A stretch of 49,710 bases of DNA from Candidatus Nomurabacteria bacterium UBA5155 (GCA_002413705.1 DHXN01000008.1:16576-66285), one strand, 5' to 3'. Shown: positions 5,311-46,363, numbered from the stretch's first letter. The notes: generated by a model not told the origin, from the letters alone. Made by a program: numbers and translations.

Positions 5311-5368
5311 ATAGGAGAATAGTAGCATGAGCTATAAAAAAAACCTCTTTCGAGGAATTTTTTAGATG

Positions 5369-5757
5369 TGGATATGGGGATATTGAAATCCCGTGTAGAG
5401 AAAGTGAACAAGTAAATCTCCATGCGTAGCACTACTTTTTGTTTAAAGCATAATCTTAAAGTAGTGCGAAATGATTATGTCCCGAGTCTCGACTTATTCG
5501 GCGAATTCCTGAGACAAGGAAGACTACCTATTCTGATGCATGTTGCCGCAATTGTTTTATCAGAAATCAAACATTGCGACACCGGCTTGACCTAAATTAG
5601 GCGAAGATCGGAATGGCACCACCAAATGCTACTGCATAGGGAGATGCCACTTTAGATGAACTTGTTACAGTTATCTGTTGAACGACGGTTGCGGGAGTAC
5701 GTTCATGCCCGGCATGCATACGAGTTCAAGCTTTCACTATCGAAACCTGACATACCC
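5369..5757 (-). ncRNA. ssrA: tmRNA (SsrA)
   Basis: On the minus strand, the 5' GGGTATGTCAGGTTTCGATAG pairs with the 3' CATATCC-A. This gives a 7-bp acceptor stem with the G3:U70 alanine identity pair. A T-arm GGGAT-TTCAAT-ATCCC is present. An internal tag ORF, GCA TCT CCC TAT GCA GTA GCA TTT GGT GGT GCC ATT CCG ATC TTC GCC TAA, lies at 5647-5597. The gene starts 4 nt after the smpB stop. CCA is not encoded. Confidence 0.85.
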
Positions 5758-10255: not shown

Positions 10256-10921
10256 ATGGCTCGTAGAGAAGACAAAATAAAAGCAATACAAATGAGGCAA
10301 AAAGGAATGAGTTATTCCAAGATAAAGACTGTTCTGAATGTGAGTAAGAGCACTTTAAGTAATTGGCTTTCTGGTGTAGTGCTTTCAAAAGAACAGTTAA
10401 GTAAGTTGAAAGAAATTACTCCTCAAAAAATAGAACGATATAGAGAAACTATGAAAATTAAAAAAACCGCTCGACTAGAAACTGTTTTTCAAAAAGCACA
10501 ATCTGATATCGGTATATTATCTCAACGAGATCTATTTGTTGCTGGTATTGCTTTATACTGGGGAGAGGGAACAAAAGCACAGCCTGCCCATGTTGCGTTG
10601 ACGAATACTAATCCTGCAATGTTACAATTTTTCCTTAAATGGATTGATATTTTTAATATAGACAAAAGTAAAATACGAATAAGATTGCATTTATACAACG
10701 ATATGGATATTAAAAAATCAATGCAATTTTGGTCAAAAGAACTTTCAATACCACTTGCACAGTTTCGAAAACCGTATATAAAGAAAACGAGTAGTTTTAG
10801 CATTACCTATAGGAATAGTTTCAAAATGGGGACATGCAGTGTAACATATGGCAATGCACCGTTATATGAGTATATAATGATGTGCATAAAGGTTCTTGAA
10901 TCCCCAATAATCCGCTCTTAG
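10256..10921 (+). CDS. HTH + LAGLIDADI-like (single-motif) homing-endonuclease-like protein
   Basis: N-terminal resolvase-type HTH (GMSYSKIKTVLNVSKSTLSNWL). It is followed by FVAGIALYWGEGTK, a LAGLIDADI-type motif ending in an acidic residue plus G. The last 10 nt, including the TAG stop, lie inside the tRNA gene. Confidence 0.6.
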   Translation: MARREDKIKAIQMRQKGMSYSKIKTVLNVSKSTLSNWLSGVVLSKEQLSKLKEITPQKIERYRETMKIKKTARLETVFQKAQSDIGILSQRDLFVAGIALYWGEGTKAQPAHVALTNTNPAMLQFFLKWIDIFNIDKSKIRIRLHLYNDMDIKKSMQFWSKELSIPLAQFRKPYIKKTSSFSITYRNSFKMGTCSVTYGNAPLYEYIMMCIKVLESPIIRS

Positions 10922-10984
10922 CTCAGTTGGTAGAGCAGTCGTCTTATACACGACCGGTCCATGGTTCGAATCCATGAGGGCGGA
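10912..10984 (+). tRNA. tRNA-Ile (anticodon UAU)
   Basis: Hand fold: acceptor CCGCTCT/AGGGCGG (C1-G72, one U-G); D arm GCTC-AGTTGGTA-GAGC; anticodon arm GTCGT-CTTATAC-ACGAC; T arm CATGG-TTCGAAT-CCATG; discriminator A. Confidence 0.85.
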
Positions 10985-11025
10985 CAATATTTACTTTCAA
11001 CAAAAATCTAGTATAGTTTTCTTAT

Positions 11026-16896: not shown

Positions 16897-16981
16897 GGAG
16901 GATTGGATGAGTGGTTTAAATCAACGGTTTACTAAACCGTCGACTGTAAAAGGTCCGTGAGTTCGAATCTCACATCCTCCG
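16897..16981 (+). tRNA. type II tRNA, Ser-like, anticodon ACU
   Basis: Acceptor GGAGGAT/ATCCTCC with all pairs Watson-Crick. 3-bp D stem GAT/ATC with GG in the loop. Anticodon arm ACGGT-TTACTAA-ACCGT. Long variable arm CGACTGTAAAAGGTCC. T arm GTGAG-TTCGAAT-CTCAC. Discriminator G. Confidence 0.7.
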
Positions 16982-17007
16982 CCGCTACTTTAGGGTATAA
17001 TCATCCT

Positions 17008-17643
17008 ATGAATCAAGAACAACAGCTTACTGAATATCTCTTAAAAAAATATAACCCACTCGCAATTCTCATTCACGGTTCACGAGCAAGCGGGTATGCG
17101 CGCGAACATAGCGATTGGGATTTTGCGATTATCGTAGACAAAGATATTGAAGTTGAGCGAGAAATAATTGATGGAGCAAATATCGAGATACGAGTACTGC
17201 AACTTCCTTTCGATGCACAAAAGATTGGAGACAAATGGATAGCCCTTAGAAAAGGGAATGTTAAAGTTGTATACGATCCTCAAAATATCACAGAATCAAT
17301 AATTGAAAAAGTTACAGAATACTATAACAAGCCGATGGTATGGGCGAAGGGAGAGATTTTTGGACACAAGGCTTGGTACCGTTCTCATACAGACGGCATG
17401 ATCGATTATCAGAATGACCATCTCGCGTTCTACAGAAAATTAAGTGAGCTTTATACAAGATCAATAATGTATTGGTTTCATTTCCTGCATAATACATACA
17501 TGCCCCAGGTATATCTTTCATTGCCTCGAATTGAAAAAGAGGACCCTGAACATTATGAACTTCTAAAGGTTCTCGCCGGAAATGGTACGAATCAGGAAAA
17601 GATTGAAGCAGCTGAGAAAATTTATAACAGAATTTGGAAATAA
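17008..17643 (+). CDS. nucleotidyltransferase-fold protein (KNTase-like: NTase + helical C-domain)
   Basis: ILIHGSRASGYAREHSDWDFAIIV matches GS-x(n)-DxD. The start at MNQEQQ is preceded by TATAAT 6 nt upstream. The longer ORF would overlap the tRNA. Confidence 0.75.
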   Translation: MNQEQQLTEYLLKKYNPLAILIHGSRASGYAREHSDWDFAIIVDKDIEVEREIIDGANIEIRVLQLPFDAQKIGDKWIALRKGNVKVVYDPQNITESIIEKVTEYYNKPMVWAKGEIFGHKAWYRSHTDGMIDYQNDHLAFYRKLSELYTRSIMYWFHFLHNTYMPQVYLSLPRIEKEDPEHYELLKVLAGNGTNQEKIEAAEKIYNRIWK

Positions 17644-17670
17644 GTTCCAACATCCTGCCACAGCGCCCGC
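17642..17670 (+). repeat. 29-nt junction box, copy 1
   Basis: AAGTTCCAACATCCTGCCACAGCGCCCGC. It starts inside the TAA stop of the preceding gene. Confidence 0.85.
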
Positions 17671-17672
17671 CG

Positions 17673-17710
17673 ATACAGAAAAAGACCGCATGTGCGGTCT
17701 TTTTCTGTAT
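17673..17710. terminator. long perfect hairpin terminator
   Basis: ATACAGAAAAAGACCGCA / TGCGGTCTTTTTCTGTAT, an 18-nt perfect inverted repeat flanked by an A-run and a T-run. Confidence 0.8.
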
Positions 17711-17922
17711 ACGTTTTTTTGAGTATTATTTAACAACCTCGGTAAAAATTTCGCCAGTTCGTTCGATTTCAAAATTTCCTAGACGTATCCAAGATGTAGA
17801 TATTTTGATAAATACAATTTCACTATCCTGTAGTTGGTCGATGGATGGTTGCCCTATTCATGGTAAGTCCAATTAGATAATTCAATGCTTCGTATTATTG
17901 TCATTAGGCGTATACTTAATAC

Positions 17923-18321
17923 ATGAAAGGATACAAAGGAGATATTGAAAAAGACACGTTAGATAATAGTAATTTCAGAAAAGTATTATACACAGCAAAA
18001 CACAGCCAGCTCGTTTTAATGAGCTTGAAGCCATTAGAAGAAATTGGTTTGGAAGTTCATCCAGATAATGATCAGTTCTTTCGTTTTGAAGGAGGAACAG
18101 GGAAGGTTGTTATCGATGATACAACATATGAAGTGAGTGATGGTATGGCAGTGATTATTCCTGCAGGATCTCAGCACAATGTCATTAATACTTCAGAAAC
18201 AGAAGCGCTAAAAATGTACACCATTTATTCACCCGCGCACCACAAAGACGGTGTGATACATGCCACTAAGGCTGATGCTGAGAGTTCGGATGAAGAATTC
18301 GACGGAGTAACTACTGAATAA
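17923..18321 (+). CDS. cupin-domain protein
   Basis: GLEVHPDNDQFFRFEGGTGKVVIDD...AVIIPAGSQHNVINT (cupin motifs 1 and 2). Confidence 0.8.
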   Translation: MKGYKGDIEKDTLDNSNFRKVLYTAKHSQLVLMSLKPLEEIGLEVHPDNDQFFRFEGGTGKVVIDDTTYEVSDGMAVIIPAGSQHNVINTSETEALKMYTIYSPAHHKDGVIHATKADAESSDEEFDGVTTE

Positions 18322-18348
18322 TTATATGTATAATAATGTTGGTTAAAT

Positions 18349-18377
18349 AAGTTCCACCATCCTGCCACAATGCCCGC
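18349..18377 (+). repeat. 29-nt junction box, copy 2
   Basis: AAGTTCCACCATCCTGCCACAATGCCCGC, 26/29 identical to copy 1. Confidence 0.85.
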
Positions 18378-18403
18378 AGCTACTTTTTGCTATACTAAAA
18401 TAT

Positions 18404-19018
18404 ATGCAAAATCCTTTTGGAGAAAAATATCAGAAATACTGGGATAGAAGACTAACTAAGTTTAGTAAGTTTGACGAGGGTATTCAGACAGATATCGAAG
18501 GATTGTACTCAGTTGGACCTGAAGATATCGCCGATAAGAATGCTATTAAAACTGGAGCAAAAATTGTCGTTGATGGTTTTTGTGGTATAGGTGGTAACAC
18601 TATCGGTTTCGCAAAACATGCAGACCATGTTTATGCAATTGAAATTGATCACAATAGAATTGAAATGGCAAAAAATAATCTTAAGGTGTACGGGCTTGAA
18701 GACAAGGTAACGTTTATTGAAGGGGATTATTTTAAAGAAGCACCTTTGATACAGGCAGATGCCGTTTTTATTGCTCCACCGTGGGGAGGCCCTGATTACT
18801 CTCAGAAAGAACGATTTACTCTTGAAGACTTTAGTCCTTCAGGAAAAGATATACTCGATCTTGCATTTAAGCATTTTTCTAAAGTGGTGCTACAAATACC
18901 CAAGAATTTTGATCTTAGCGAATTAGACCAATTTGGAAAAGAATATACAGTAGAGAATGAAATGTATGAAGATAATATAATGTTTAAAACAGTTTACTTC
19001 TTTACTCTTGAAATATAA
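18404..19018 (+). CDS. TGS1-like RNA cap guanine-N2 methyltransferase family protein
   Basis: VVDGFCGIGGNTIGFA (SAM motif I), VYAIEID and FIAPPWGGPDY, the signature of the trimethylguanosine-synthase family. Confidence 0.75.
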   Translation: MQNPFGEKYQKYWDRRLTKFSKFDEGIQTDIEGLYSVGPEDIADKNAIKTGAKIVVDGFCGIGGNTIGFAKHADHVYAIEIDHNRIEMAKNNLKVYGLEDKVTFIEGDYFKEAPLIQADAVFIAPPWGGPDYSQKERFTLEDFSPSGKDILDLAFKHFSKVVLQIPKNFDLSELDQFGKEYTVENEMYEDNIMFKTVYFFTLEI

Positions 19019-19047
19019 ACGTTCCAACATCCTGCCACAGCACTCGC
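19019..19047 (+). repeat. 29-nt junction box, copy 3
   Basis: ACGTTCCAACATCCTGCCACAGCACTCGC, 26/29 identical to copy 1. It begins directly after the TAA stop and is followed by a decayed hairpin ending GTTTTTCTGTGTAC (to about 19098). Confidence 0.85.
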
Positions 19048-19104
19048 ACTTGATTAGTACATACATAAATTGGTTGTGCCGGTGTTTTTCTGTGTACTTT
19101 TCCA

Positions 19105-19184: not shown

Positions 19185-20042
19185 ATGCGTACATATAAAA
19201 CAATCGGGGTAGCGGGTACTGTTGCCATACTTCTTCTTTCTGGCACTGTTGTGTTTGCTCAAGGCAGACCGGCTAGCGCGGGGCCGGGAAGTGTTACTCA
19301 GGGTACTGCTCAAGGAGCGGAGAACCAATATCGACCGGCGAATACCGGCTCGACTGGCGGAGTACCGGCTGGAAATCCTAGCGGCACTTACCGTCCCGCA
19401 ACTACTTCAACGACATCAACTACTTCTCAAGGAAGCAAGGGGCAAGCTGCGCAGGAACGGATGCAGGCTGCGCGAACGCAAGGCCAAGCACATGCGACAG
19501 CCGCCCGCGAGCAGGTCGCACAGCGACTTGCCGGCATTCAAGACAAAGTAAAACAGCGTCTTGCAGAAAATCTCGCAACGCGGTTCGACCAGCTTAACAA
19601 GACGTGGACCGACCACTTTATGCAGGTGCTCGACCACTATGATGCCATTTTGCAGAAAGTGCAGGACCGTGCGACTGCTGCAGCTTCAAGTGGAAAAGAC
19701 ACAACTGCAACAAGCGCGGCTATCACTGCGGCAAAAACATCTATTGCGACTGCTCGCACTGCGATAACAGCACAAGCGGCTAAGACCTACACACTCAATA
19801 CTTCAACTGTTACTACGACATCTACAACCACCACTTCAAGCGGTCAGACGGAACTTATGCAGGGACTCCGCACTTCTTTCCAGAATCTCAATGAGACACT
19901 GTTTAAAGATCTCTTTGCGCTTCGCGACGGCCCTATGACTGATACTCGCAAAGCAGTACAGAGTACACTACAGACACTCAGCCAAATTCCCGGAGTCGAC
20001 CAGGTGAATACCACTTCAACCGACGCAACCTCGACCAATTAA
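19185..20042 (+). CDS. secreted Ala/Thr/Gln-rich low-complexity protein
   Basis: Signal peptide MRTYKTIGVAGTVAILLLSGTVVFAQG. Helical A/Q/T-rich body. The DNA is visibly more G+C-rich than its surroundings. Confidence 0.6.
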   Translation: MRTYKTIGVAGTVAILLLSGTVVFAQGRPASAGPGSVTQGTAQGAENQYRPANTGSTGGVPAGNPSGTYRPATTSTTSTTSQGSKGQAAQERMQAARTQGQAHATAAREQVAQRLAGIQDKVKQRLAENLATRFDQLNKTWTDHFMQVLDHYDAILQKVQDRATAAASSGKDTTATSAAITAAKTSIATARTAITAQAAKTYTLNTSTVTTTSTTTTSSGQTELMQGLRTSFQNLNETLFKDLFALRDGPMTDTRKAVQSTLQTLSQIPGVDQVNTTSTDATSTN

Positions 20043-21294: not shown

Positions 21295-21381
21295 GGAGAC
21301 GTGGCTGAGTGGTTGAAGGCACCGGTTTCGAAAACCGGCATATGAGCAATCGTATCGAGGGTTCAAATCCCCCCGTCTCCG
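21295..21381 (+). tRNA. tRNA-Ser (anticodon CGA)
   Basis: Acceptor GGAGACG/CGTCTCC, anticodon arm CCGGT-TTCGAAA-ACCGG, long variable arm, T loop TTCAAAT, discriminator G. Confidence 0.85.
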
Positions 21382-21436
21382 CAAGTTATTCTTTCTTCAT
21401 GTTTAATTCATCAATTATTGTTATTATAGTAACGAC

Positions 21437-25980: not shown

Positions 25981-25985
25981 ATGTG

Positions 25986-26070
25986 CGGAGACGGCGAGAT
26001 TCGAACTCGCGAGGCTTTGACACCTGCCTCCTTAGCAAGGAGGTACGTTAGACCACTCCGACACGTCTCC
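25986..26070 (-). tRNA. tRNA-Ser (anticodon GCU)
   Basis: On the minus strand: GGAGACG...CCTCC-TTGCTAA-GGAGG...long variable arm...CGAGT-TCGAATC...CGTCTCC-G. Confidence 0.85.
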
Positions 26071-45511: not shown

Positions 45512-45585
45512 GCCGGTGTAGCTCAGGTAGTTAGAGCATCTCACTCATAAAGAGAAGGTCACAAGTGCAAATCTTGTCATCGGCA
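45512..45585 (+). tRNA. elongator-type tRNA with CAU anticodon (Met, or Ile2 if lysidinylated)
   Basis: Acceptor GCCGGTG/CATCGGC. D arm GCTC-AGGTAGTTA-GAGC. Anticodon loop CTCATAA. T arm ACAAG-TGCAAAT-CTTGT, with G at position 55. Confidence 0.7.
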
Positions 45586-45621
45586 CACTTCACAATATTT
45601 ATTACTAATTTTACTGAGTAA

Positions 45622-46293
45622 ATGCCAGTTTATAAAAATGTAAATAAAAAATTTTTTAACATATGGACTTCTGAAATGGCATACGTGCTAGGATTTTTTG
45701 CTGCCGATGGTTATATTACAGTTAATAAAAGAGGTGGACAATATTGGGGTATTCAAATTATTGATAAAAATTTGTTGGAAGAAATTAAAAAGGTGATTGG
45801 ATCTGAACACGCTATTGGTTGTAAAAAAGGTAAGGAAAATGAAAGCACATTATATCGTCTTCAGATCGGCAGCATTGAAATATGTGATGCACTTCGGGGG
45901 TTGGGGTTTTCTGAAAAGAAAACAAACAATATGACACTGCCCGGTGTCCCGGAAGAGTATGTTGGAGATTTTATCAGAGGATATTTTGATGGTGATGGCA
46001 ATGTCTGGGTTGGTAAGAATAATGCGCGTCGAGAAAGAAGTGTTGATACGATACTTGTCATGTTTACTTCCTGTTCTGAATCATTCTTACAGTCTTTGAA
46101 ACAAAGACTCATTTTGAAAGGTTTAAAGGGTGGTTCACTATATTCCTTAAAAGAAGGGTATTTTCGGCTTTCACTGAGTGTGCAGGACTCTTTGAAATTA
46201 TTCGAAATTATGTATAATAACAGCACGTCAGAGAGCTTGTATCTAAAGCGAAAGAAAGACGTTTTCGAACAATTTATAGCAATGCGACCGTAG
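45622..46293 (+). CDS. double-motif LAGLIDADI homing endonuclease
   Basis: LGFFAADGYI and IRGYFDGDGNV motifs about 100 aa apart. The last 10 nt, including the TAG stop, lie inside tRNA-Asp. Confidence 0.85.
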   Translation: MPVYKNVNKKFFNIWTSEMAYVLGFFAADGYITVNKRGGQYWGIQIIDKNLLEEIKKVIGSEHAIGCKKGKENESTLYRLQIGSIEICDALRGLGFSEKKTNNMTLPGVPEEYVGDFIRGYFDGDGNVWVGKNNARRERSVDTILVMFTSCSESFLQSLKQRLILKGLKGGSLYSLKEGYFRLSLSVQDSLKLFEIMYNNSTSESLYLKRKKDVFEQFIAMRP

Positions 46294-46358
46294 CTCAGCT
46301 GGTTAGTAGCGCCCGCCTGTCACGCGGGAGGTCGGCGGTTCAAGTCCGCTCGGTCGCG
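46284..46358 (+). tRNA. tRNA-Asp (GUC)
   Basis: Acceptor GCGACCG/CGGTCGC, anticodon arm CCCGC-CTGTCAC-GCGGG, T arm GGCGG-TTCAAGT-CCGCT, discriminator G. Confidence 0.9.
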
Positions 46359-46363
46359 CAAAG

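What the first reader, a model, noticed from the sequence alone, without database searches (positions are those of the whole stretch)
16897..19098. tRNA-Ser-headed array of three equal-sized single-gene modules, each closed by the same 29-nt box plus terminator (cassette-like, no recombinase in view)
Seen directly: three co-oriented copies of one box.
- Copy 1, 17642-17670: AAGTTCCAACATCCTGCCACAGCGCCCGC
- Copy 2, 18349-18377: AAGTTCCACCATCCTGCCACAATGCCCGC
- Copy 3, 19019-19047: ACGTTCCAACATCCTGCCACAGCACTCGC

Copies 2 and 3 each match copy 1 at 26/29. Box-to-box spacing is 707 and 670 nt. Copy 1 starts 661 nt after the 3' end of the tRNA-Ser gene. Each interval holds exactly one co-oriented accessory gene: a KNTase-like nucleotidyltransferase, a cupin, and a TGS1-like methyltransferase.

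In copies 1 and 3 the gene's TAA stop lies inside the conserved lead-in of the box (GGAAATAAG / GAAATATAAAC). Each box is followed by a terminator hairpin. The hairpin is a perfect 18-nt inverted repeat in copy 1, decayed in copy 3 and deleted in copy 2. The hairpins end in CTTTTTCTGTATAC, GTTTTTCTGTGTAC and CTTTTTGCTATAC respectively.

The box resembles a tRNA T-loop-to-acceptor segment. Compare box GTTCcAA....CATCCTgCC with GTTCGAATCTCACATCCTCCGCC at the 3' end of the adjacent tRNA-Ser. The 18 nt after the tRNA (GCTACTTTAGGGTATAAT) match the 18 nt after box 2 (GCTACTTTTTGCTATACT) at 15/18. That match includes the -10 hexamer placed 6-7 nt before the next ATG.

Inference: all four junctions descend from one junction element. 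The layout is what repeated site-specific insertion at a tRNA 3' end, or integron-like cassette accretion, would leave. However, the modules are single genes and carry their own -10 box. The box does not fit the attC core GTTRRRY. No integrase is present in the window. An alternative reading is a paralogous family of 3'-UTR elements, each a conserved single-stranded box plus terminator.
Basis: partly seen in the sequence, partly recalled or inferred. Interest (0 to 1): 0.72.

Follow-up and report, generated by a model that had tools for sequence, protein, structure and literature searches.

The report
Serine-recombinase cassette stack at tRNA-Ser
Three small accessory genes sit in a row behind a serine tRNA gene, each ending in a leftover docking site of a mobile-DNA recombinase; sister strains carry the 9-kb mobile element that encodes such a recombinase exactly at the head of the row, so this looks like a stack of recombinase-less gene cassettes in a candidate-phyla-radiation bacterium.

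Summary
Three co-oriented boxes (26/29 identical to copy 1) close three single-gene modules behind tRNA-Ser(ACU), and nowhere else in the 49.7-kb window.

An 8,952-bp element encoding a large serine recombinase (LSR) sits exactly at the tRNA|module-1 junction, with crossover inside CCGC (16979-16982).

That element's right end (GTTCTAAC-N15-CCGC) has the same architecture and register as the box (GTTCCAAC-N15-CCGC). The tRNA arm carries the motif 5 bp closer (GTTCGAAT-N10-CCGC), which is the published attB/attP offset for serine integrases.

In this LSR family attP lies inside the 3' end of the recombinase gene. Read in the register fixed by the core, the box encodes RALWQDVGTF, which matches the C-terminal tails of unintegrated family members.

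Each box is therefore an attP-derived arm joined to a host-type right arm, that is, an attR-like junction.

Similar arrays (2-5 boxes, 0.4-1.2 kb apart, varied cargo) occur in several other Patescibacteria. One shares the methyltransferase module but has different neighbours.

Best reading: recombinase-less cassettes stacked at an active LSR attB (CIME- or pseudo-SCC-like). This is a new variant of a known kind. Mobility of the cassettes themselves is inferred, not shown.

The parts
16897..16983 (+). tRNA-Ser (anticodon ACU), head of the array. Its 3' part is the B arm of the attB site: GTTCGAAT at 16961-16968, then N10 at 16969-16978.
   Evidence: ARAGORN and Rfam. Motif register. The same tRNA abuts LSR genes in L032 and L060.
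16979..16982 (.). Core CCGC: the crossover region. An 8,952-bp LSR element is inserted here in sister contigs.
   Evidence: Comparison of the occupied contig (L032) with the empty one (L033). Left identity runs through CCGC and right identity starts at CCGC. A second LSR variant sits at the same point.
16983..17007 (+). Right arm, promoter type (B' arm): CGCTACTTTAGGG, then TATAAT (16996-17001), with 6 nt to the ATG.
   Evidence: Read from the sequence. The same arm type follows box 2, and follows boxes or P arms in L021, L015 and L006.
17008..17643 (+). Cassette 1 gene: Polbeta / NTP_transf_2 nucleotidyltransferase (211 aa).
   Evidence: Pfam PF18765, E=3.5e-10.
17644..17670 (+). Box 1, a P-type left arm: GTTCCAAC, then N15, then core CCGC (17667-17670).
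   Evidence: The minus-strand reading RALWQDVGT matches LSR tails.
17671..17720 (+). Right arm, terminator type (B' arm): perfect 18-nt inverted repeat at 17673-17710 followed by a T run.
   Evidence: ATACAGAAAAAG resembles the right arm of the L061 element (ACATATAGAAAAACCC) and the native terminator after tRNA-Ser(GCU).
17923..18321 (+). Cassette 2 gene: Cupin_2 protein (132 aa).
   Evidence: Pfam PF07883, E=1.9e-14.
18351..18377 (+). Box 2, a P-type left arm, with core CCGC at 18374-18377.
18378..18403 (+). Right arm, promoter type: AGCTACTTTTTGC, then TATACT (18391-18396), with 7 nt to the ATG.
   Evidence: Matches the tail after the tRNA at 14/18.
18404..19018 (+). Cassette 3 gene: Methyltransf_15 (TGS1-like) SAM methyltransferase (204 aa).
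   Evidence: Pfam PF09445, E=2.7e-33. A module of roughly 80% nucleotide identity sits in the L006 array.
19021..19047 (+). Box 3, a P-type left arm, with a decayed core TCGC at 19044-19047.
19048..19101 (+). Right arm, decayed terminator type. Its 3' half (19080-19101) is homologous to 17695-17716.
   Evidence: Direct repeat D15, 86%. No terminator is called here.

Best explanation
**What the boxes are.** They are the attP-derived (P-type) left arms of attachment sites used by a Patescibacteria-wide family of large serine recombinases (LSRs). These recombinases integrate at the CCGC that ends tRNA-Ser genes. Each box is joined to a host-type right arm, either a promoter or a tRNA-style terminator. 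That makes each junction attR-like.

**What the array is.** The tRNA|GCTACTTT junction at the head is an intact, currently empty attB. The array is a stack of recombinase-less single-gene cassettes bounded by attR-type junctions.

**Proposed mechanism (inferred).**
1. An LSR element integrates at the head: attP x attB.
2. It can excise using either its own attR or any downstream box junction as an alternative attR.
3. Using a downstream junction picks up cassettes. Using its own junction leaves cassettes behind next to a regenerated attB.

This is cis-mobilisation, or accretion. It needs only the canonical LSR reactions and places the newest cassettes next to the tRNA.

**Shown here:** the insertion polymorphism, the crossover core, the homology and register of the arms, and the coding origin of the box.

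**Inferred:** that box junctions are still recombination-competent, and that alternative-attR use built the array.
For: 1. **Insertion polymorphism.** Same-population contigs differ by an 8,952-bp insertion exactly at the tRNA 3' end. The element carries a 559-aa Resolvase+Recombinase protein, an AAA_25 protein, a MerR/HTH_17 protein and tRNA-Arg. The junctions are attB CATCCT-CCGC-CGCTACTTT, attL ...CCGC-AAAGTGAG and attR GTTCTAACAGCCTCAACAGTCCG-CCGC-CGCTACTTT. A second LSR variant occupies the same site in other samples.
2. **Shared arm architecture.** P arms of three LSR elements (L032, L061, and the intact attP of L059) and the boxes all read GTTCYAAC-N15-CCGC. The tRNA arm reads GTTCGAAT-N10-CCGC. 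This 5-bp inward shift of the distal motif in attB relative to attP is the published rule for serine integrases (PMC3783163).
3. **Box-to-P-arm similarity.** Identity is 16/27 ungapped at a fixed register, P about 4e-4.
4. **Coding origin of the box.** attP lies inside the LSR gene's 3' end. The reconstructed circular-form protein gains the tail ...RRTVEAVRTW..., and unintegrated homologues carry V[RG]T tails. The box, read in the register fixed by the core, gives RALWQDVGTF. This resembles P0122 (LTLWDDFGTI) and P0162 (LAVWYEVGTS), and only 2 of 20,000 shuffles score as well.
5. **Interchangeable ends.** In L021 two copies of the L032-type P arm and two boxes occupy equivalent positions in one array, with the same GCTACTTT right arm.
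6. **Family target.** LSR homologues (more than 1,100) abut tRNA-Ser genes in L060 and L061.
7. **Arrays elsewhere.** Arrays with varied cargo occur in L006, L015, L021 and L048, and a single box lies behind the same tRNA in L001. Cargo includes APH, VanX-like, EamA and WGR proteins.
8. **Shared module.** The methyltransferase module is shared with L006 but has different neighbours, and homology ends at the box.
9. **Composition.** The array has GC 0.34-0.39, against 0.42-0.48 in the flanks.
Against: - No cassette presence/absence polymorphism was seen. All contigs of this population that cover the array carry the same three modules.
- The cognate LSR with a box-type tail was not found. No LSR lies within the 8-kb loci around boxes in other genomes.
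- The L015 array has no tRNA within 2.6 kb upstream.
- Box 3 has a mutated core (TCGC), and several boxes elsewhere are degenerate. At least some junctions are therefore decaying.
- The near-identity of the 19-nt box core between genomes is partly an ascertainment effect, because an exact-pattern search was used.
- Right arms were classified by eye.
- The sample is small: about 8 arrays.
Confidence: 0.68

Rival explanations
1. Passive scars. Each box is the attR left by a separate full-length LSR element that later decayed down to its last gene. The modules are inert remnants, and nothing moves as a cassette.
For: - Boxes derive from the LSR 3' end / attP.
- Some boxes are degenerate, and box 3 has a mutated core.
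- The array is invariant within this population.
- L006 holds short geneless stretches with tRNA-3'-like remnants.
Against: - After one LSR integration no attB remains, so repeated integration plus decay must regenerate tRNA|B' each time. No simple deletion does that.
- The modules are consistently intact single genes whose ORFs end at the box, across several lineages.
- The same methyltransferase module sits in two non-syntenic arrays.
- The head attB is intact and in use.
Confidence: 0.22
2. Autonomous integron-like cassettes. Each module circularises on its own, giving a box|right-arm junction, and inserts at the tRNA or at another box. The recombinase acts in trans and is either the LSR or an unknown enzyme.
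For: - The layout mimics an integron array: single genes, each closed by a conserved site.
- Sites of one type recombining with the head site would regenerate both site types.
Against: - Serine integrases do not recombine attR-type with attB-type sites (PMC3783163 abstract).
- There is no tyrosine recombinase in the window or in the loci examined.
- The box has no attC-like fold and no GTTRRRY core.
Confidence: 0.06
3. RNA-level element. The box is a conserved single-stranded 3'-UTR motif, with or without a terminator, that acts on mRNA stability or processing.
For: - In the window each box follows a stop codon on the coding strand.
- Two of the three are followed by terminator-like sequence.
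Against: - Folding is no better than shuffles, and no structure is shared.
- There is no Rfam match.
- In L004 and L015 the box lies after a terminator. In L001 it flanks the 5' end of an opposite-strand gene, and the degenerate copy in L015 lies by the 5' end of one.
- Methyltransferase homologues at 62-78% identity lack it.
- There are only 3 copies in 49.7 kb.
Confidence: 0.03
4. Displaced tRNA 3' fragments. The boxes would be the direct repeats that flank tandem islands made by a tyrosine integrase.
For: - The box shares GTTC.AA, CATCCT and GCC with the tRNA 3' end.
- A true 14-nt tRNA 3' fragment does occur in L006.
Against: - The box matches the tRNA end at only 11/27 when aligned at the core, and the motif is offset by 5 nt.
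- The crossover lies at the extreme 3' CCGC, so no tRNA segment is duplicated.
- The recombinase found is a serine recombinase, not a tyrosine one.
Confidence: 0.01

Closest known systems
CIMEs (cis-mobilisable elements) and accretion-mobilisation at ICE/IME attachment sites, e.g. ICESt1/ICESt3 at fda and tRNA-Lys islands in streptococci (review PMC5704250)
   Same: - Recombinase-less DNA flanked by att sites.
- It sits in tandem with an integrase-encoding element at the same target.
- The composite can excise through alternative att sites, and arrays grow by site-specific accretion.
   Different: - Those systems use tyrosine integrases, and the CIMEs are multi-gene remnants several kb long.
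- Here the recombinase is a large serine recombinase.
- The units are single genes of 0.4-1.2 kb.
- The host is a CPR bacterium.
- Cis-mobilisation is not demonstrated.
SCCmec composite islands and pseudo-SCC elements in staphylococci, with Ccr large serine recombinases at the 3' end of rlmH/orfX (from my own knowledge, not checked here)
   Same: - An LSR-driven, single chromosomal attB.
- Tandem arrays include elements that lack the recombinase.
- Each is delimited by repeated integration-site sequences.
   Different: - The target there is a protein gene, not a tRNA.
- The elements are 3-60 kb.
- The repeats are attB-like cores, not fossil ends of the recombinase gene.
Integron cassette arrays (IntI, attI, attC)
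   Same: - Co-oriented single-gene cassettes, each closed by a recombination site.
- The newest cassettes are expected next to the head site.
- The cargo is accessory or resistance-like.
   Different: - There is no IntI tyrosine recombinase and no folded attC with a GTTRRRY core.
- The cassettes carry their own -10 boxes.
- The head is a tRNA gene.
Phage-type serine integrase att sites (A118/LI, Bxb1, phiC31; PMC3783163)
   Same: - A short crossover core.
- attP arms are longer than attB arms.
- The distal (zinc-ribbon-domain) motif lies 5 bp closer to the centre in attB.
- The recombinase gene lies next to attP.
   Different: - attP lies inside the 3' end of the recombinase ORF, so integration replaces its last roughly 27 residues with 2 (RM, then stop) read from the tRNA.
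- attR-type junctions recur as arrays.
Tycheposon-type tRNA-targeting elements and island build-up in Prochlorococcus (bioRxiv 10.1101/2020.12.28.424599; seen only as a title and abstract)
   Same: - tRNA-targeted integrative elements are proposed to build variable genomic islands in a streamlined genome.
   Different: - The paper was not read in detail.
- The arrays of single-gene modules closed by a conserved P arm described here were not compared with it.

Membership tests
Large-serine-recombinase attachment sites | A mobile insertion bounded by a short shared core, with a Resolvase+Recombinase-domain gene at one end | tested here: met
   An 8,952-bp insertion at CCGC, with a 559-aa LSR abutting attL. 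A second variant sits at the same site.
Large-serine-recombinase attachment sites | The distal recognition motif lies 5 bp closer to the crossover in attB than in attP half-sites (PMC3783163) | tested here: met
   tRNA arm GTTCGAAT-N10-CCGC. Three P arms and the three boxes are GTTCYAAC-N15-CCGC; box 2's motif reads GTTCCACC and box 3's core TCGC. Tested for left arms only. Right arms were inspected by eye and are inconclusive.
Large-serine-recombinase attachment sites | The box is homologous to a bona fide attP arm of the family | tested here: met
   - 16/27 identity at a fixed register, P about 4e-4.
- The translated box matches LSR C-terminal tails; 2 of 20,000 shuffles score as well.
- The box is interchangeable with the L032-type P arm in the L021 array.
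Large-serine-recombinase attachment sites | The recombinase binds and recombines the box junctions | not testable with these tools
   Needs biochemistry, or read-level evidence of recombinant junctions.
CIME / accreted recombinase-less elements | Bounded by att-type sites, lacking a recombinase, and in tandem with a recombinase-encoding element at the same target in some genomes | tested here: met
   No recombinase in the window. L032/L026/L028 carry the LSR element directly upstream of cassette 1.
CIME / accreted recombinase-less elements | Excision or transfer of the composite (cis-mobilisation) | not testable with these tools
   There is only indirect support: the methyltransferase module is shared between non-syntenic arrays.
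Integron | An IntI tyrosine recombinase with attI at the head of the array | tested here: not met
   No Phage_integrase-type gene appears in the window or in sister contigs around the array. The head is a tRNA gene.
Integron | attC: an imperfect palindrome that folds as single-stranded DNA, with R' core GTTRRRY | tested here: not met
   The box reads GTTCCAA. Six box regions fold no better than shuffles (z from -1.3 to +1.2) and share no structure.
Generic terminator-associated or REP-like intergenic repeat | Many copies dispersed downstream of unrelated, including core, genes | tested here: not met
   There are 3 copies in 49.7 kb, all in the array. In other genomes the copies are clustered. 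The exact core occurs in only 6 species-representative genomes, all Patescibacteria.
Structured RNA family (Rfam) | A match to a curated covariance model, or a conserved fold | tested here: not met
   Only the tRNA is found. There is no fold.

The most novel reading that the evidence does not exclude
Patescibacteria may possess a gene-cassette exchange system that does the job of an integron but is built on large serine recombinases.

- Single-gene cassettes carry their own leaderless promoter in the right arm and a fossil recombinase-tail P arm at their end.
- They are picked up and dropped next to tRNA-Ser genes by passing LSR elements, through alternative-attR excision.
- This would let very small genomes swap accessory and resistance-like genes across classes, for example between Saccharibacteria and Paceibacteria.
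- The unusual, near-identical tRNA-Ser(ACU) would serve as the shared landing pad.
Probability: 0.3. Interest if true: 0.8.

Novelty: new variant of a known kind. Interest (0 to 1): 0.6.

Why it matters
- Candidate-phyla-radiation bacteria have tiny genomes, and how they exchange genes is poorly understood. This locus gives a concrete, testable route: an abundant LSR family (more than 1,100 homologues) that targets tRNA-Ser 3' ends, with single-gene cassettes stacked behind the target.
- It offers natural attB/attP pairs and a recognisable arm grammar (GTTCYAAC-N15/N10-CCGC) for a new group of serine integrases. That is of interest for genome engineering.
- It shows an LSR whose own C-terminus is rewritten by integration, which is a possible built-in sensor of the integrated versus excised state.
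- The cargo is accessory and in part resistance-like: nucleotidyltransferases, an APH kinase, a VanX-like dipeptidase and an EamA transporter.

Tried and rejected
- **Viral contigs, box pattern:** no match.
- **Viral contigs, L032 P-arm pattern:** 5 matches, all chance hits in unrelated coding DNA with no LSR.
- **Metagenome scan for the box:** this added only one new array (L048) and copies of L004.
- **Non-Patescibacteria genome hits:** these are chance or conserved coding sequence, for example one gene shared by Rhodobacterales and Sphingomonadales. None extends beyond the searched pattern.
- **Right end of the L060 element:** not located.
- **Strictly alternating right-arm model:** I considered attP-like and attR-like junctions in turn, then dropped it. 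The terminator-type arm after box 1 resembles host tRNA-Ser terminators (a B' arm), not LSR P' arms.
- **Inverted-repeat symmetry of the right arms:** a by-eye check was inconclusive.
- **Search for the cognate LSR:** a chimeric query (LSR C-terminus plus box-encoded tail) found no candidates.
- **Naming the organism:** the cluster look-up gave no organism names. The assignment to Patescibacteria rests on the titles of related records.
- **Literature:** the searches run turned up no description of these arrays or of a bacterial tRNA-Ser(ACU).
Full report
**1.

The region reads as described. A 20-nt core of the box occurs three times in the 49,710-bp window at up to 3 mismatches, all on the + strand at 17644, 18351 and 19021. 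None is expected in shuffles. The 29-nt copies match copy 1 at 26/29, and spacing is 707 and 670 nt.

The array is headed by tRNA-Ser(ACU) at 16897-16983. The three genes are a Polbeta-type nucleotidyltransferase, a Cupin_2 protein and a Methyltransf_15 (TGS1-like) methyltransferase.

Box 1 is followed by a perfect 18-nt inverted repeat and terminator. Box 3 is followed by only the 3' half of a homologous hairpin. Box 2 is followed directly by GCTACTTTTTGCTATACT and the next ATG.

Minor corrections: the two 18-nt tails match at 14/18, and box 1 begins 659 nt after the tRNA.

**2. The missing recombinase is in sister strains**

Exact-protein look-ups of window genes returned contigs from several samples of the same population.

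- Some contigs are collinear with the window (L027, L029, L033, L034).
- Others (L026, L028, L032, L035) carry an extra 8,952 bp between the tRNA and the nucleotidyltransferase gene.

The insert encodes a 559-aa large serine recombinase (Resolvase + Recombinase domains), an AAA_25 protein, YaaC, PP2C, a MerR/HTH_17 protein and tRNA-Arg(UCU).

Comparing occupied and empty sites gives the following junctions:

- attB: CACATCCT-CCGC-CGCTACTTT
- attL: ...CATCCT-CCGC-AAAGTGAGAAT
- attR: GTTCTAACAGCCTCAACAGTCCG-CCGC-CGCTACTTT

The crossover therefore lies within CCGC, window 16979-16982, at the very end of the tRNA.

In further samples a different LSR, about 63% identical over the last 57 residues, sits at the same point and has the same right end. 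The head junction is a live attB.

**3. The box is a P-type arm**

The right end of the element and the box have the same build and the same distance to the core:

- L032 right end: GTTCTAAC-N15-CCGC
- L061 right end (a 70%-identical LSR abutting tRNA-Ser(UGA) in a Taylorbacteria MAG, 6.7 kb from the tRNA): GTTCTAAC-N15-CCGC
- L059, an intact attP next to the LSR stop: GTTCTAACTTCGTCTAGTACCCT-CCGC-ATAGTGAGAC
- the box: GTTCCAAC-N15-CCGC

The tRNA arm carries its T-loop motif 5 nt closer: GTTCGAAT-N10-CCGC. A 5-bp inward shift of the distal (zinc-ribbon-domain) motif in attB relative to attP is the published distinction between the two site types of serine integrases (PMC3783163).

Ungapped identity of the box to each P arm is 16/27 at a fixed register, P about 4e-4. 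To the tRNA end it is only 11/27.

**4. Where the box sequence comes from**

In this family attP lies inside the 3' end of the recombinase ORF.

- Integrated, the L032 protein ends ...LTLRRM*, using codons read from the tRNA.
- Across the reconstructed attP it is 583 aa and ends ...LRRTVEAVRTWYEENNDVFYIPTLENAL.

Among the 120 best homologues:

- many stop within 1-3 residues of the core (RRR, RRM, WLRG);
- some read on into a tRNA T arm (..RDSNSRS.., ..DQGSNLGHPP);
- a minority carry tails with a V/F-[RG]-T motif, which I read as unintegrated forms.

The box, read on the minus strand in the register dictated by alignment at the core, has no stop and encodes R-A-L-W-Q-D-V-G-T-F. This resembles P0122 (L-T-L-W-D-D-F-G-T-I) and P0162 (L-A-V-W-Y-E-V-G-T-S). 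Only 2 of 20,000 shuffles score as well, and the other frames score negatively or could not be scored.

The DNA of P0162's own 3' end begins AGTTCCAAC like the box, but it has another core (CAGC), so it targets something else.

The box is thus a fossil of the attP / 3' end of an LSR gene. The exact cognate recombinase was not found.

**5. Right arms**

Two kinds follow the core.

- **Promoter type.** (A/C/T)GCTACTTT... with a -10 box 6-7 nt before the ATG. It follows the tRNA, box 2, and boxes or P arms in L021, L015 and L006.
- **Terminator type.** After box 1, ATACAGAAAAAG... resembles the right arm of the L061 element (ACATATAGAAAAACCC...) and the native terminator after tRNA-Ser(GCU) in the window.

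Both are what lies downstream of tRNA-Ser genes, that is, B' arms. None resembles the LSR P' arm (AAAGTGAGAA). The three box junctions therefore read as attR-type (P|B'), and the head junction as attB (B|B').

**6. The same thing elsewhere**

The exact 19-nt core (one position free) was found in 25 stretches of species-representative genomes. Only the Patescibacteria hits extend beyond the pattern (...GCGCCCGC); the rest are chance or coding sequence. Because the search demanded the core, its perfect conservation is partly ascertainment.

The informative points are these:

- Copies are clustered: L015 has 5 (2602, 3210, 4088, 4506, 5488), L021 has 2, L006 has 3 and L048 has 2.
- L001 and L006 have the same tRNA-Ser(ACU) upstream on the same strand.
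- Cargo differs between arrays: APH kinase, VanX-like dipeptidase, EamA transporter, WGR protein and unknowns.
- Genes can lie in either orientation relative to the box.
- In L021 two copies of the L032-type P arm and two boxes alternate as equivalent cassette ends in one array, followed by the same GCTACTTT arm.

L006 carries a methyltransferase module with roughly 80% nucleotide identity to the window's. Homology starts at the promoter arm and ends at the box, and the neighbours differ.

Methyltransferase homologues at 62-78% protein identity in six other loci, from five different contexts, have no box and no tRNA-Ser. The box therefore belongs to the array, not to the gene.

**7. What it is not**

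- **Not an integron.** There is no tyrosine recombinase in the window or in sister contigs. Six box regions show no attC-like fold. There is no GTTRRRY core, and the promoters are the cassettes' own.
- **Not a known RNA family or a structured motif**.
- **Not a generic terminator-associated repeat.** There are three copies in about 50 genes, all in this array.
- **Not duplicated tRNA ends.** Identity to the tRNA end is poor and the motif is offset by 5 nt. The crossover sits at the last bases of the tRNA.

**8. Mechanism proposed**

Canonical serine-integrase chemistry allows attP x attB, and with a directionality factor attL x attR. It does not allow other pairings (PMC3783163).

A model that needs only these reactions runs as follows:

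1. An LSR element integrates at the head attB.
2. On excision, attL can pair with the element's own attR or with any downstream box junction.
3. Pairing with a downstream junction captures cassettes into the circle. A later excision through the proximal attR deposits them beside a regenerated attB in a new host.

This is the accretion / cis-mobilisation logic described for CIMEs (PMC5704250). From memory, it is also the logic of pseudo-SCC elements in SCCmec composite islands.

The model explains:

- the attR-type junctions;
- the empty attB in the window alongside occupied sister strains;
- the mixing of two P-arm types in one array;
- the sharing of a module between non-syntenic arrays;
- why ORFs stop at the box: in the circle, the cargo gene converges on the recombinase's 3' end.

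The low GC of the array (0.34-0.39, against 0.42-0.48 in the flanks) fits foreign origin.

These steps are inferred. No cassette-level polymorphism was seen in this population, box 3's core is mutated, and several boxes elsewhere are decayed. The main rival is that the modules are now inert scars.

**9. Verdict**

The recombinase, the crossover point and the origin of the box are now identified. It is a new variant of a known kind: tandem accretion of recombinase-less elements at an integrase target. It is unusual for three things: the single-gene size of the units, the serine recombinase whose gene spans attP, and the CPR host.

Interest is moderate to high (0.6). The integron-like reading, if it held up, would deserve more.

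Noticed in passing
window 16897-16983; also L001 7482-7568(-), L006 7721-7807(-), L060 11695-11782(-): This is a tRNA-Ser with anticodon ACU (A34), which is unusual for bacteria. It is identical outside the variable arm in the window, a Saccharibacteria MAG and a Paceibacterota MAG. An ordinary tRNA-Ser(GCU) is also present (window 25985-26070). No paper on it was found. It may be a shared landing pad, or itself horizontally spread.
   Followed up: partly
L032 11000-12679(-) with 19938-19964; homologues P0097-P0216: The LSR ORF spans attP, so integration replaces its last roughly 27 residues with 2 (RM, then stop) read from the tRNA. Homologues fall into three classes: integrated (ending RRR, RRM or WLRG), reading through into a tRNA T arm, and tailed (V[RG]T). 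This could be a built-in switch between integrated and excised states.
   Followed up: partly
window 45622-46293 (+): A LAGLIDADG_3 homing-endonuclease-like ORF is wedged between tRNA-Met (45512-45586) and tRNA-Asp (46284-46359), overlapping the start of the latter. Two tRNA-Met genes lie just upstream.
   Followed up: no
window 10912-10985 (+): A tRNA-Ile with anticodon UAU, a rare way of reading AUA in bacteria.
   Followed up: no
window 16996-17010 and 18391-18406; L015 2640-2656: -10 hexamers sit 6-7 nt before the ATG, with no room for a Shine-Dalgarno sequence. The cassette genes appear to be expressed as leaderless mRNAs.
   Followed up: no
L006 7400-7720(-) and 5810-5960(-): Two homologous leaders of roughly 150 nt each hold a hairpin that includes the CCGC core, plus two decayed tRNA-3'-like units (GCGACTAYAWAA..CTCCGC). 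A true 14-nt copy of the tRNA 3' end lies about 190 nt after the tRNA. These look like stacked geneless att remnants.
   Followed up: partly
L015 1380-1400 and 1815-1845: Upstream of the five-box array lie a GTTCTAAC-N10-CCGC sequence (attB-type spacing, but not in a tRNA) and a degenerate L032-type P arm after a GIY-YIG gene. The array may extend further than the boxes show.
   Followed up: no
window 19185-20042 (+): The first gene after the array is a high-GC (0.55), low-complexity T/S/A/Q-rich secreted protein with no Pfam family. The region up to tRNA-Ser(CGA) at 21295-21382 may be part of a larger variable island.
   Followed up: no
L030 1-35; L036 and L037 contig ends: Nextera adapter remnants (CTGTCTCTTATACA / AGATGTGTATAAGAGACAG) sit at contig ends where assemblies break at the attL and attR junctions. 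These are assembly artefacts that mark strain heterogeneity at this site.
   Followed up: no
window 5366-5757 (-): A tmRNA gene lies next to smpB, and a type IV pilus gene cluster lies at about 28.6-40.6 kb. Both are ordinary.
   Followed up: no
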